IMG/VR virus record: IMGVR_UViG_2671180431_000010
Reading direction: 5' to 3' (one strand)
Length of the DNA: 4,377 bases
Origin: a virus
Taxonomy: Duplodnaviria > Heunggongvirae > Uroviricota > Caudoviricetes
The translations under genes were made by a program, and so were the position numbers. This document shows, one piece after another, positions 1 to 3,754 of the stretch; position 1 is the first letter of the stretch; every line of letters starts with the position of its first letter. The notes under the pieces were generated by a model, which saw only the letters and a program-made list of their open reading frames with translations, ran no database searches and was not told where the DNA came from.

Positions 1-2414
<2,414 letters not shown>

Positions 2415-2419
2415 TCACG

Positions 2420-2423
2420 CTCC
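2420..2423 (-). promoter_or_regulatory. Probable Shine-Dalgarno (GGAG) for J, 8 nt upstream of the J ATG
   Basis: Minus-strand sense sequence of the spacer ends ...UAUGGAGCGUGAGGA-AUG. The GGAG has typical spacing; the GAGGA directly abutting the AUG is too close to act as the SD. Confidence 0.45.
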
Positions 2424-2433
2424 ATAAACGATA

Positions 2434-2453
2434 AAACCGCCCGGAGGCGGTTT
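2434..2453 (-). other. Perfect 8-bp inverted repeat (stem-loop, 4-nt loop) in the I-J intergenic spacer, followed on the sense transcript by a U-rich tract; possible weak intrinsic terminator or attenuator, or an mRNA stability/processing hairpin
   Basis: Plus strand 2434..2441 aaaccgcc, loop 2442..2445 cgga, 2446..2453 ggcggttt (exact reverse complement). On the minus-sense RNA this reads AAACCGCC-UCCG-GGCGGUUU followed by UAUCGUUUAU. It lies between the I stop (2472..2474) and the J start (2411). Confidence 0.35.
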
Positions 2454-2471
2454 CACATAAAACGTTTTTCA

Positions 2472-3113
2472 TCAGCGACCAATCACCACAACCTGACCAC
2501 CATCACCTTCATCTGCTGTGCTGATCTCCTGAGATACCACACGTGATCCCACGCGCATTTCACCGTACAGAACGGGCAGAACATTGCCCTGGGCAACCAT
2601 ATTATCCAGTGAAGAAAAATAGGTGTTCTGTTTGCCGTTATCCGTTGTCTGTGTGCGGGGGGTTTTGGGTTTAGGGGCCAGCATCTGTGCAACACCGCCA
2701 AGCGTCATACTGGCACCGAGAGAAAACAGCAGATTACTCGCCATAATTCCTACCCCCGGCATCCATATAGCAACCGCCATAACAGCCGCCCCCAGCACAG
2801 CCTGAAACACACCGCCACTTTTGGCTCCTGCCAGACGCGGCACGATATGGATCACAGCACCATTTGCCAGCGGTTCATTAAGACGGGCTGATAATTCCGT
2901 TTCACCTGTATCACGCCCGGCAATGCGTACCTGATACCAGCCGTCGCTCAGCTTCTGACGAAACGCCGGGAGCTGTGTGGCCAGTGCCCGGATGGCTTCA
3001 GCCCCCGTTTTCACACGAAGGTCGATGCGGCGGCCAAATCGTTGTAAATCCCCGTAAAGGCAGATGCGCGCCATGCCCGGTGACGCCAGAGGGAGTGTGT
3101 GCGTCGCTGCCAT
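2472..3113 (-). CDS. I: Tail assembly protein I (gpI family), 213 aa: N-terminal ubiquitin-like (beta-grasp) region, a diglycine, a glycine-rich hydrophobic central segment and a conserved C-terminal region
   Basis: Complete ORF in the track (MAATHTLPLASPGMARICLYGDLQRF...GGQVVVIGR). Position between K and J, the ~103-nt overlap with K and the 60-nt spacer before J all match lambda gene I. Start ATG at 3113..3111 is preceded by GAGAGAGG about 11 nt upstream; stop TGA at 2474..2472. Confidence 0.9.
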   Translation of the reverse strand: MAATHTLPLASPGMARICLYGDLQRFGRRIDLRVKTGAEAIRALATQLPAFRQKLSDGWYQVRIAGRDTGETELSARLNEPLANGAVIHIVPRLAGAKSGGVFQAVLGAAVMAVAIWMPGVGIMASNLLFSLGASMTLGGVAQMLAPKPKTPRTQTTDNGKQNTYFSSLDNMVAQGNVLPVLYGEMRVGSRVVSQEISTADEGDGGQVVVIGR

Positions 3114-3754
3114 TTGTCGGTATACCTCTCTCGTTTGCTCAGTTGTTCAGGAATATGGTGCAGCAGCTCGCCGTCGCCGCAGTAAATTGCGGCGTGATTC
3201 GGCACCGATGAACCAAAACAGCACAGCAGCACATCGCCCGGCTGTGCCGCTGACAACGGCACCTGATACAGCCCCGTCGCCTCTAGATTATCCAGATAGA
3301 GATTCTGGCCGTTACGCCACCAGTCATCCTCACGATGAAAGTCCGGCATCTCAATCCCCGCCAGATGATAAGCATCCCGGAACAGTGTGTAACAGTCCGT
3401 CACACCGTGCTCAAAGCGCCGCCCGGTGAGATGCGGCACACAGCGGAACTTATGAATCGTCCCCCGGCAGACCAGCCACCACGGCAAATCACTCTGCACC
3501 TGCAGCCGCCGGTCGGCCTCACTCAGCCAGGGCAGACCACCGGGGTGGCTGTGGACCAGCGCCACAATCTCACCCTGCATTTCTGCCTGCAGCCAGTCTT
3601 CCGGCGACATACGGAAATACGCCTCCGGCTCACCGGAGATATTCACGCAGGGGAAATATCTTTCCCCCTCCGGCGTGCTTACCACGAAGCCGCACGACTC
3701 CGCTGGCGCACATCGCCGGGCGTGCGCCAGAATCGCTGATTCTGTCTGTGTCAT
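3011..3754 (-). CDS. K: Tail assembly protein K (gpK family), 247 aa as the full ORF: N-terminal JAMM/MPN (Mov34) metallopeptidase-like domain plus C-terminal NlpC/P60 (C40) cysteine peptidase-like domain. An alternative internal start (Met49, ATG at 3610..3608) would give a 199-aa product
   Basis: ORF track protein MTQTESAILAHARRCAPAESCGFVV...; JAMM signature H68-S-H70-PGGLPWL-S-EA-D (HxH x7 S x2 D) with an upstream ESCG (Glu19) resembling the JAMM catalytic-Glu motif; downstream GVTDCYTLF and NHAAIYCGDGELLHH are consistent with an NlpC/P60 Cys/His active site. Gene order L-K-I-J as in lambda. The start is uncertain: the upstream ATG at 3754 lies 5 nt after the L stop with no clear SD, while the internal ATG is preceded by GGAGG about 11 nt upstream. 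Confidence 0.88.
   Translation of the reverse strand: MTQTESAILAHARRCAPAESCGFVVSTPEGERYFPCVNISGEPEAYFRMSPEDWLQAEMQGEIVALVHSHPGGLPWLSEADRRLQVQSDLPWWLVCRGTIHKFRCVPHLTGRRFEHGVTDCYTLFRDAYHLAGIEMPDFHREDDWWRNGQNLYLDNLEATGLYQVPLSAAQPGDVLLCCFGSSVPNHAAIYCGDGELLHHIPEQLSKRERYTDKWQRRTHSLWRHRAWRASAFTGIYNDLAAASTFV

What the first reader, a model, noticed from the sequence alone, without database searches (positions are those of the whole stretch)
2472..3754. Adjacent I (ubiquitin-like + diglycine) and K (JAMM + NlpC/P60) form a ubiquitin-like processing/conjugation-type module inside the tail assembly operon
Seen in sequence: K carries a JAMM-type metal-binding motif and a Cys/His papain-like (NlpC/P60) signature. 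I has a roughly 80-residue N-terminal region (about residues 14-92, ICLYGDL...VIHIVPR) followed by S-G-G at residues 99-101 (codons at 2811..2816) and then a glycine-rich hydrophobic stretch. Established knowledge: comparative genomics work (Iyer, Burroughs and Aravind, on prokaryotic antecedents of ubiquitin signalling) described lambda gpI as having a ubiquitin-like beta-grasp domain functionally linked to the JAB and NlpC/P60 domains of gpK. The biochemical role in tail-tip assembly, whether cleavage at the diglycine, conjugation or cell-wall hydrolysis, remains poorly resolved as far as I know.
Basis: partly seen in the sequence, partly recalled or inferred. Interest (0 to 1): 0.55.

Follow-up and report, generated by a model that had tools for sequence, protein, structure and literature searches.

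The report
Lambda tail genes K and I
These are the well-known tail-tip assembly genes K and I of a lambda-like phage: I starts with a small ubiquitin-like domain, K is a double protease, their link was predicted in 2006, and whether K actually cuts I is still untested.

Summary
On the minus strand the window carries L (partial), K (3011-3754, 247 aa), I (2472-3113, 213 aa) and the start of J. It is 95.5% identical to lambdoid phage PhiR49_1.

- **K:** it has an exact JAMM motif (E19, H68-S-H70-x7-S78-xx-D81) and an NlpC/P60 Cys/His set (C121, H187, H199). All of these are invariant in 42 distinct homologues at 32-52% identity.
- **K's JAB domain:** its closest solved structure is Pyrococcus JAMM1, a SAMP-specific protease.

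The interpretation needs two corrections. First, the conserved feature is not the G100-G101 pair. G96 is invariant, residue 97 is Ala or Ser, G101 is about 90% conserved, and G100 varies. Second, nothing supports conjugation, because no E1 or E2 gene lies nearby.

The best reading is a cleavable pro-domain. Virion structures show only the C-terminal part of gpI (from residue 101 or 134). gpK is absent from virions. [quoted passage not shown] That K makes the cut is inferred, not shown.

This restates Iyer et al. 2006, so it is already known.

The parts
3011..3754 (-). Gene K, tail-tip assembly protein, 247 aa, a non-structural two-domain peptidase.
   Evidence: ORF. Pfam Prok-JAB plus NLPC_P60. 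96-98% identical to the 247-aa 'phage tail protein / C40 family peptidase' clusters. Annotated as tail tip assembly protein K in PhiR49_1.
3443..3746 (-). K residues 3-104: JAB/MPN+ (JAMM) metalloprotease domain with E19, H68, H70, S78 and D81.
   Evidence: Pfam PF14464, E 6.1e-14. Motif positions. All five residues are invariant or nearly so in 42 homologues. AlphaFold2 pLDDT is 93-96. The best Foldseek hit is P. furiosus JAMM1 (5ld9_A, E 2.7e-5), followed by CSN5 and Rpn11.
3083..3424 (-). K residues 111-224: NlpC/P60 (C40) papain-like domain with C121, H187 and H199.
   Evidence: Pfam PF00877, E 5.7e-13. D120-C121-Y122, H187, H199 and H200 are invariant in 42 homologues. AlphaFold2 pLDDT is only 72-84, and no NlpC/P60 structure appears among the top 50 Foldseek hits.
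2472..3113 (-). Gene I, tail-tip assembly / plug ('insertion') protein precursor, 213 aa from M1. An alternative start at M14 (ATG at 3072-3074) would give 200 aa.
   Evidence: ORF. 365 bits to lambda gpI of PDB 8IYK, 8IYL, 8K35 and 8XCG. Homologues begin at the equivalent of M14. A GAGG lies 11 nt upstream of M1, and no Shine-Dalgarno sequence precedes M14.
2826..3074 (-). I residues 14-96: MoaD/ThiS/SAMP-type ubiquitin-like beta-grasp domain ending at the invariant G96.
2811..2828 (-). I residues 96-101 (G-A-K-S-G-G): conserved hinge and candidate cleavage region. G96 is invariant, residue 97 is Ala or Ser, G101 is about 90% conserved, and G100 is variable.
   Evidence: Column counts. The region is disordered in both AlphaFold2 models. 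Published models of the virion protein start at lambda residue 101 and T1 residue 92, which is the same column.
2652..2810 (-). I residues 102-154: two hydrophobic, glycine-rich helices (H1 and H2 of the lambda literature).
   Evidence: Hydropathy. AlphaFold2 helices at fusion positions 313-330 and 337-360 correspond to I 99-116 and 123-146. They are described as predicted transmembrane helices H1 and H2. Lambda 137-152 wraps the gpH C-terminus.
2475..2651 (-). I residues 155-213: C-terminal plug / beta-augmentation domain (TAPI-C) that stays in the virion tip lumen.
   Evidence: Nearly identical to the modelled part of lambda gpI (9E7M chains, residues 126-212 aligned). It forms a trimeric plug under the gpH C-terminus.
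3011..3113 (-). 103-nt K/I overlap, with I in the -1 frame relative to K.
   Evidence: Lambda has the same overlap. Most distant relatives have a 4-nt overlap or a small gap instead.

Best explanation
I is made as a precursor with four parts:
- an N-terminal MoaD/SAMP-like ubiquitin-fold domain (about residues 14-96);
- a short conserved Gly-containing hinge (G96-[A/S]97...G101);
- two hydrophobic helices;
- a C-terminal plug domain.

Only the part from the hinge onward ends up in the particle. There, three copies plug the tail-tip lumen and hold the C-terminus of the tape-measure protein.

The ubiquitin-fold domain most likely acts as a removable pro-domain or chaperone. It would keep the hydrophobic helices soluble and guide I into the J-L cone. 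It would then be cut off at the hinge when the tip matures and joins the tape measure and tube.

K is encoded immediately upstream, is not part of the particle, and carries an intact JAMM site and an intact papain-like NlpC/P60 site. It is the most likely enzyme for that cut. The JAMM domain would recognise the ubiquitin-fold domain and its glycine tail, as archaeal JAMM1 does with SAMPs.

Shown here or in cited work: the folds, motifs, conservation and gene linkage; absence of the N-terminal region from solved particles; loss of that region on maturation in F-pyocin; and the requirement for the K homologue in tip formation.

Inferred: that K is the protease, which of its two domains acts, and the exact bond. 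I favour a cut after the invariant G96 or within residues 97-100.
For: - **Selection:** in 42 distinct K homologues at 32-52% identity, only 34 of 247 positions are near-invariant. These include E19, H68, S69, H70, S78, D81, D120, C121, Y122, H187, H199 and H200. In I homologues at 30-45% identity, P92 and G96 are near-invariant.
- **Linkage:** a JAB plus NlpC/P60 gene lies directly upstream of I in all 44 related loci where the upstream DNA is present and in three more distant contigs. PHROG families that span JAB plus I and K plus I exist. Iyer et al. 2006 report natural fusions.
- **Fate of I in particles:** only lambda gpI 135-223, 134-222 or 101 onward is seen. T1 gp34 is modelled for 92-163 and F-pyocin PA0640 for 127-200. 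The earliest starts, lambda 101 and T1 92, fall in the same conserved Gly column.
- **Processing in a homologue:** peptides from the N-terminal region of PA0640 are absent from mature F-pyocin but present in stalled tip precursors.
- **K is an assembly factor, not a particle part:** it is not found by mass spectrometry in lambda or F-pyocin, and deleting PA0639 gives tubes without tips.
Against: - No experiment links K to the cut.
- In F-pyocin mutants stalled before tube attachment, the N-terminal region of PA0640 persists although the K homologue is present. The same region is removed by unidentified E. coli proteases when PA0640 is expressed alone. K is therefore shown to be neither sufficient nor necessary.
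- An AlphaFold2 model of a K-I fusion did not dock the tail of the ubiquitin-fold domain into the JAMM site. pTM was 0.42 and pLDDT was below 50 at I residues 95-97.
- Iyer et al. note I genes next to K versions that have only the NlpC/P60 domain, so the JAMM domain cannot be universally required.
- For lambda itself, particle mass spectrometry found one gpI peptide, 9.9% coverage. An uncut but flexible N-terminal domain is therefore not excluded.
- The reported first modelled residues come from the papers' text, not from coordinates I could inspect.
Confidence: 0.55

Rival explanations
1. The ubiquitin-fold domain of I is not a substrate of K. It is a docking handle that recruits K to the nascent tip, and K's peptidase domains act on another tail protein. 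The tape-measure protein gpH is a candidate: it loses a C-terminal piece at a glycine-rich region through an unknown protease. The I pro-domain would then be lost through host proteases or simply be disordered.
For: - Two invariant catalytic centres suggest that K may have two substrates.
- The protease for the gpH to gpH* cleavage is unknown, and the cut lies in a glycine-rich region.
- The I plug directly holds the gpH C-terminus, so I, the gpH C-terminus and K meet at the tip.
- The N-terminal region of PA0640 is removed by host proteases when the protein is expressed alone, and it is retained in stalled precursors that contain the K homologue.
Against: - JAMM enzymes with a MoaD/SAMP-type partner normally cut at that partner's C-terminal glycine, as shown by the PfJAMM1-SAMP2 structure matched.
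- The invariant G96 at the end of the beta-grasp is hard to explain for a pure docking handle.
- Nothing in this window bears on gpH.
Confidence: 0.17
2. The ubiquitin-fold domain is never removed. It stays attached to the plug protein in the particle as a flexible, invisible domain, and K is only a folding or assembly chaperone whose catalytic residues serve another purpose.
For: - Several cryo-EM papers simply call the N-terminal domain 'unresolved' or flexible.
- Lambda particle mass spectrometry gives too little gpI coverage to decide.
- Ge and Wang even speculate that the N-terminal part acts at infection.
Against: - Mature F-pyocin lacks peptides from the N-terminal region that are readily detected in precursors.
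- Three 10-kDa domains would have to sit in or near a lumen already filled by the plug and the gpH coiled coil.
- Strict conservation of both catalytic sets of K argues for enzymatic activity.
Confidence: 0.12
3. K's NlpC/P60 domain is a cell-wall (peptidoglycan) endopeptidase used at infection or lysis. The neighbouring ubiquitin-like domain would be incidental.
For: - NlpC/P60 is best known as a peptidoglycan endopeptidase family. Weak PDB sequence hits are to such enzymes, and public annotation reads 'C40 family peptidase' or 'cell wall-associated hydrolase'.
- The enzyme lambda uses to cross the cell wall is unidentified.
Against: - K is not detected in lambda particles, and its homologue is absent from F-pyocin particles.
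- K has no N-terminal signal peptide: its sequence begins MTQTESAILAHARRCAPAE.
- Its loss blocks tip assembly rather than entry.
- The domain is always fused to or beside a JAMM domain and next to a ubiquitin-fold gene.
Confidence: 0.05
4. This is a true ubiquitin-like conjugation module. After release, the ubiquitin-fold domain, ending in Gly, would be activated by a host MoeB/ThiF-type E1 and attached to a tail protein, with K's JAMM reversing the link, as in archaeal SAMPylation.
For: - The closest structural relatives are SAMP1 and MoaD for I and a SAMP-specific JAMM for K.
- SAMPylation needs only an E1-like enzyme, and E. coli has MoeB and ThiF (my own knowledge).
- The glycine at the end of the domain is invariant.
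Against: - No E1 or E2 gene lies in the window or in related loci.
- No extra density or adduct is reported on lambda, T1 or F-pyocin tip proteins.
- The domain is encoded as an internal pro-domain, not as a free modifier.
Confidence: 0.04

Closest known systems
Phage lambda gpK / gpI (TAPK / TAPI of Iyer, Burroughs and Aravind 2006; Pfam PF14464+PF00877 and PF06805)
   Same: Same genes, order, domain make-up and 103-nt overlap. Outside the first 45 codons, where the reference lambda sequence is out of frame, K differs from the lambda sequence at one residue, A241V. I matches lambda gpI at 365 bits with identical N- and C-terminal parts.
   Different: I is 10 residues shorter than lambda gpI (213 versus 223 aa). 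It differs in two patches: residues 68-86 inside the beta-grasp and residues 103-135 in the first hydrophobic helix and loop. The reference lambda record annotates K as 199 aa because it lacks one base.
F-pyocin PA0639 / PA0640 of Pseudomonas aeruginosa (PDB 25vf; bioRxiv 10.64898/2026.02.24.707460)
   Same: PA0640 aligns with I over residues 11-199 (E 1.8e-24) and has the same G-S-K...G hinge. It forms the same plug. Its N-terminal region is lost on maturation, and the K homologue is needed for tip formation and is absent from particles.
   Different: This is a bacteriocin, not a phage. The identity of the protease was not addressed, and host proteases can remove the domain in isolation.
Archaeal SAMP / JAMM1 system (H. 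volcanii and M. acetivorans SAMP1; P. furiosus JAMM1-SAMP2, PDB 5LDA)
   Different: SAMPs are free modifiers that end in Gly-Gly and are conjugated by an E1-like enzyme. Here the beta-grasp is the N-terminal part of a structural-protein precursor, no E1 is encoded, and the JAMM domain is fused to an NlpC/P60 domain.
Phage T5 baseplate hub pb3 plug domain
   Same: It sits at the same place in the tip lumen and does the same plugging job as the C-terminal part of gpI.
   Different: In T5 the plug is an insertion within the hub protein, with no separate ubiquitin-fold pro-domain. From my own knowledge, T5 has no K-like peptidase gene. This fits the idea that K is needed only where the plug is made as a separate precursor.
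Bacterial Bil (ISG15-like) defence system
   Same: It uses a ubiquitin-like protein and a JAB peptidase, and it acts on the phage central tail fibre, the J-type protein next to I.

Membership tests
Lambda tail assembly protein I (TAPI, PF06805) | N-terminal ThiS/MoaD-like beta-grasp domain | tested here: met
Lambda tail assembly protein I (TAPI, PF06805) | Highly conserved glycine at the C-terminal end of the beta-grasp | tested here: met
G96 is Gly in 38 of 38 ungapped homologues and is at least 90% conserved in the 32- and 58-sequence alignments.
Lambda tail assembly protein I (TAPI, PF06805) | Glycine-rich hydrophobic linker followed by the TAPI-C plug domain | tested here: met
   Full-length match to lambda gpI of 8IYK, and residues 126-212 match the modelled chains of 9E7M. 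Hydropathy.
Lambda tail assembly protein I (TAPI, PF06805) | Gene position between K and J in an M-L-K-I-J tail-tip block | tested here: met
   Window order L-K-I-J. The same order holds in PhiR49_1, lambda and distant contigs.
JAMM / MPN+ metalloprotease (Prok-JAB, PF14464) | Motif E-xn-H-S/T-H-x7-S-xx-D | tested here: met
   E19, H68, S69, H70, S78 and D81 with exact spacing. The motif definition is taken from the abstract of PMC300881. The residues are invariant across 42 homologues.
JAMM / MPN+ metalloprotease (Prok-JAB, PF14464) | MPN fold | tested here: met
   AlphaFold2 pLDDT is 93-96 over residues 1-100. Foldseek hits are PfJAMM1, CSN5, Rpn11, AMSH and AfJAMM. The sequence hit to 2kks_A has E 1.3e-5.
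JAMM / MPN+ metalloprotease (Prok-JAB, PF14464) | Zinc-dependent cleavage after the C-terminal glycine of a ubiquitin-fold partner | not testable with these tools
   This needs biochemistry. The AlphaFold2 model of a K-I fusion gave no confident docking.
NlpC/P60 (C40) papain-like peptidase (PF00877) | Catalytic Cys, His and a third polar residue in family order | tested here: met
   Pfam E 5.7e-13 over residues 111-224. C121, H187 and H199/H200 are invariant.
NlpC/P60 (C40) papain-like peptidase (PF00877) | Papain-like fold | tested here: inconclusive
   The model has pLDDT of only 72-84 for this part. No NlpC/P60 chain appears among the top 50 Foldseek hits for the multi-domain query.
NlpC/P60 (C40) papain-like peptidase (PF00877) | Peptidoglycan endopeptidase activity | not testable with these tools
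   The context argues against it: there is no signal peptide and the protein is absent from particles.
Ubiquitin-like conjugation system (E1-E2-Ubl, or SAMP/E1 type) | E1-like adenylating enzyme encoded with the ubiquitin-like protein | tested here: not met
   The window holds only L, K, I and J. Neighbouring genes in three distant contigs carry only tail Pfam families.
Ubiquitin-like conjugation system (E1-E2-Ubl, or SAMP/E1 type) | Free modifier ending in Gly-Gly | tested here: not met
   The beta-grasp is the N-terminal third of a 213-aa protein, and G96 is followed by 117 more residues. A free glycine end would arise only after cleavage.
Ubiquitin-like conjugation system (E1-E2-Ubl, or SAMP/E1 type) | Isopeptide-linked adducts on target proteins | not testable with these tools
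   None is reported in the particle structures or proteomics read here.

The most novel reading that the evidence does not exclude
K's two invariant peptidase centres serve a small phage-encoded ubiquitin-like cycle rather than a single trimming step.
- The JAMM domain frees the MoaD/SAMP-like domain of I with a C-terminal Gly.
- That domain is then transiently attached, through a host MoeB/ThiF-type activating enzyme, to a tail-tip protein as an assembly checkpoint, and removed again.

Probability: 0.05. Interest if true: 0.85.

Novelty: already known. Interest (0 to 1): 0.27.

Why it matters
The genes, their domains and the proposed K-I link have been in the literature since 2003-2006 and are built into Pfam. 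The finding itself therefore adds nothing new.

Its value is as a reminder of an open and easily testable point in the best-studied phage:
- Recent particle structures and F-pyocin proteomics show that the ubiquitin-like part of the plug protein is missing from finished tails, yet none of those papers connects this to K's JAMM domain.
- Knowing the enzyme and the bond would fill in a missing step of lambda tail-tip assembly.
- It would give an early, simple example of a JAMM and ubiquitin-fold pair working outside any conjugation system.
- It would help the engineering of F-type pyocins.

Tried and rejected
- **K-I fusion model as a stand-in for a K-I complex.** I used a database K-I 'fusion' protein (P0151) for AlphaFold2. 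The first alignment was misaligned. The final model gave good domains but no confident inter-domain packing (pTM 0.42), so it says nothing about docking.
- **Programmed -1 frameshift joining K to I.** I is in the -1 frame relative to K. I rejected this idea for two reasons. The database fusions have different junctions and are single-member clusters from draft or long-read assemblies. No X_XXY_YYZ slippery heptamer lies in the overlap.
- **The search for related loci with diverse I alignments.** This failed because no stretch was conserved enough. Single diverse homologues worked instead.
- **Profile search of PDB sequences with the beta-grasp alone.** It reached the MoaD-related protein 1v8c only at E 0.42, so the MoaD relationship rests on fold comparison and on Iyer's iterative searches.
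- **A 2783-aa hit with 23 matched stretches (P0288).** It is a repetitive, unrelated sequence and was dropped.
- **Literature searches for experimental work linking gpK's JAB domain to gpI.** They found none. Wang et al. 2024 in Structure is not held.
Full report
**What is in the window**

All long, family-matching ORFs lie on the minus strand.
- Gene L is partial. Its listed ORF at 3760-4257 matches Phage_tail_L positions 40-206.
- Gene K is 3011-3754 (247 aa) and gene I is 2472-3113 (213 aa).
- After a 60-nt spacer, gene J starts at 2411 with [16 protein letters not shown].

The whole window is 95.5% identical to Escherichia phage PhiR49_1. It is 93-95% identical to other lambdoid phages, where these genes are annotated as tail tip assembly proteins L, K and I and host-specificity protein J. 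The window is therefore the tail-tip block of a lambda-like phage or prophage.

**Checking the observation**

- In I, ICLYGDL is residues 17-23, VIHIVPR is 87-93, and S-G-G is 99-101. The two glycine codons are at 2811-2816.
- In K, the residues are H68-S-H70, then S78 and D81 with the exact x7 and x2 spacing. The upstream E19 completes the JAMM motif E-xn-H-S/T-H-x7-S-xx-D, as defined in PMC300881.
- DCY is K residues 120-122.

Pfam confirms the three domains well above curated thresholds: Lambda_tail_I on I 14-97 (E 1.4e-24), Prok-JAB on K 3-104 (E 6.1e-14), and NLPC_P60 on K 111-224 (E 5.7e-13). A hydrophobic stretch follows the glycines.

Iyer, Burroughs and Aravind (PMC1779556) described the ubiquitin-like domain of 'TAPI'. 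They noted its conserved C-terminal glycine, the glycine-rich linker and the C-terminal domain. They described the flanking 'TAPK' with JAB and NlpC/P60 domains. They also proposed that the JAB domain releases the ubiquitin-like domain by cutting at that glycine.

**Fold tests**

An AlphaFold2 model of I residues 1-105, built on 58 diverse sequences, has mean pLDDT 80.7, with 86-93 over residues 11-90. It shows the strand-helix order of a beta-grasp. Residues 97-105 are disordered.

For K, I modelled a 428-aa database protein (P0151) in which K and I are joined by a frameshift. The JAB part is confident (pLDDT 93-96). Its best Foldseek match is Pyrococcus furiosus JAMM1, also solved in complex with SAMP2, followed by CSN5, Rpn11 and AMSH.

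The NlpC/P60 part is less confident (pLDDT 72-84) and produced no top-50 hit. Its fold therefore rests on the Pfam match and the catalytic residues.

The model gave no confident arrangement between domains (pTM 0.42), and the tail of the ubiquitin-fold domain stayed disordered. It neither supports nor refutes docking.

**Conservation and linkage**

I collected diverse homologues of I through a search of 1.84 billion representatives, which gave 3,269 hits at E of 0.001 or better. I also collected 45 related loci.
- Every locus with upstream DNA carries a JAB plus NlpC/P60 gene directly before I. The two genes usually overlap by 4 nt.
- Three further distant contigs show the order tape measure, M, L, K (Prok-JAB plus NLPC_P60), I, J.
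- Among 42 distinct K homologues only 32-52% identical to this K, just 34 of 247 positions are near-invariant. These include all JAMM residues and the NlpC/P60 Cys and His residues. Both catalytic centres are therefore under strong selection.
- PHROG families exist that span K plus I and JAB plus I. This agrees with the fusions Iyer et al. reported.

**The 'diglycine' is not the conserved feature**

In I homologues at 30-45% identity, P92 and G96 are invariant and residue 97 is Ala or Ser. G101 is Gly in about 90% of homologues. G100 is Gly in only 27 of 38.

From memory, the C-terminus of MoaD and SAMP1 reads F-P-P-V-(T/S)-G-G. The I family reads V-P-x-x-x-G-(A/S). The invariant G96 therefore sits where the terminal glycine of those proteins sits. 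This equivalence is an inference, not a computed alignment.

**What particle structures and proteomics say**

Lambda gpI is in PDB entries 8IYK, 8IYL, 8K35, 8XCG and 9E7M. First modelled residues differ between studies:

| Particle | Protein and residues modelled | Source |
|---|---|---|
| Lambda | gpI 135-223, a trimeric plug under the gpH C-terminus | PMC10721106, |
| Ur-lambda | gpI 134-222 | PMC12617516, |
| Lambda, closed state | gpI from 'position 101 onward'; the N-terminal domain is never seen | PMC11101478, |
| T1 | gp34 92-163 | PMC11945409, |
| F-pyocin | PA0640 127-200 | |

By the profile alignment, T1 residue 92 is the same conserved glycine as G101. If the protein is cut, the mature N-terminus therefore lies at or before G101. 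A ubiquitin-fold fragment ending at ...S-G-G101 is disfavoured. A cut after G96 or within residues 97-100 fits.

gpK was not detected in lambda particles by mass spectrometry.

The strongest evidence comes from an F-pyocin preprint (10.64898/2026.02.24.707460).
- Deleting the gpK homologue PA0639 gives tubes without tips.
- PA0639 is absent from particles.

That work did not identify the protease and did not mention the JAB domain. It also reports two facts that cut against a simple model. The N-terminal region persists in stalled precursors although PA0639 is present. It is also removed by unknown E. coli proteases when PA0640 is expressed alone.

**Mechanism**

The best-supported reading is that I is a precursor whose MoaD/SAMP-like domain is a removable pro-domain for a very hydrophobic plug protein. 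K is the dedicated, non-structural maturation peptidase.

I put about 0.55 on this, with the JAMM domain as the more likely cutter. The steps 'K cuts I', 'JAMM rather than NlpC/P60' and 'bond at G96-G100' are all inferred.

The rivals are:
- K is recruited by the ubiquitin-fold domain but cuts something else, for example gpH, whose maturation protease is unknown.
- The domain is retained but flexible.
- K is a cell-wall hydrolase.
- The module performs true conjugation.

The conjugation reading fails two defining tests. No E1 or E2 gene is present, and the ubiquitin fold is not a free modifier ending in glycine.

**Comparison with what is known, and novelty**

This is lambda K/I itself in a close relative. 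The domain architecture, the gene link and the cleavage hypothesis were published in 2006, and JAMM in 'tail assembly protein K' was noted in 2003-2004. The finding is therefore already known.

My searches found no paper that tests the K-I link experimentally, so the biochemical question stays open.

What this check adds is modest:
- the conserved positions are G96, A/S97 and G101, not the G100-G101 pair;
- the published first modelled residues of lambda and T1 coincide at one conserved glycine;
- the closest solved relatives of both partners come from the archaeal SAMP/JAMM system;
- the conjugation reading has no support.

**Scores**

Interest is 0.27 and novelty is 'already known'. The most novel reading not excluded is a transient phage ubiquitin-like cycle, or K as the protease for both tail maturation cuts. 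I give it a probability of about 0.05, and it would be of high interest if true.

Noticed in passing
window 3617-3622 (K codons 45-46); L002 (lambda NC_001416) about 14,265: The 1982 reference lambda sequence (J02459 / NC_001416) lacks one base here: GAGGC-TATTTCC versus GAGGCGTATTTCC in the window. This puts the first 45 codons of K out of frame. RefSeq therefore annotates K as 199 aa starting at M49, without the JAMM glutamate E19. Resequenced lambda records (KT232076, LC730321 at 48,503 bp, PV340536, lambda imm21 and imm434, DE3) all carry the extra base. The short K is most likely a sequencing error that has been carried into databases.
   Followed up: yes
window 3011-3113 and 3072-3074: The start of I is annotated in three ways in public records: M1 (213 aa), M14 (200 aa, most NCBI records) and V34 (180 aa in PV340568, which would remove the first beta-strand). 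Distant homologues start at the equivalent of M14. A 52%-identical relative (L005) has a 64-nt K/I overlap that corresponds to the M14 start. However, only M1 has a Shine-Dalgarno-like GAGG upstream. The true start is unresolved.
   Followed up: partly
window 2412-2471 (I-J spacer, minus strand): The 60-nt spacer between I and J folds into a strong hairpin (AAACCGCC-TCCG-GGCGGTTT within a longer stem, -24.6 kcal/mol) followed by T-rich sequence. It is conserved in lambda (-21.0 kcal/mol). One phage record (Ayreon) lists a 'terminator' under the match. The simple terminator scan did not call it.
   Followed up: partly
proteins P0003, P0004, P0057, P0136, P0151, P0199, P0237 and others (database K-I 'fusions'): Many single-member database proteins join K (or its NlpC/P60 part) to I at different junctions inside or near the 103-nt overlap. 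They look like indel errors or decayed prophages rather than programmed frameshifting, and no slippery heptamer lies in the overlap. PHROG families 28576 and 35166 seem to be built on such fusions.
   Followed up: partly
window I residues 68-86 (2856-2912) and 103-135 (2709-2807): Compared with lambda gpI, the protein is nearly identical except for two replaced patches. One is a surface segment of the beta-grasp. The other is the first hydrophobic helix and loop, which is 10 residues shorter here. This suggests mosaic exchange within the gene.
   Followed up: no
L032, L033, L035, L038-L040, L042 (IMG/VR loci): In one group of distant relatives, K and I are separated by about 490-700 nt instead of overlapping. 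An extra small gene may sit between them. It was not examined.
   Followed up: no
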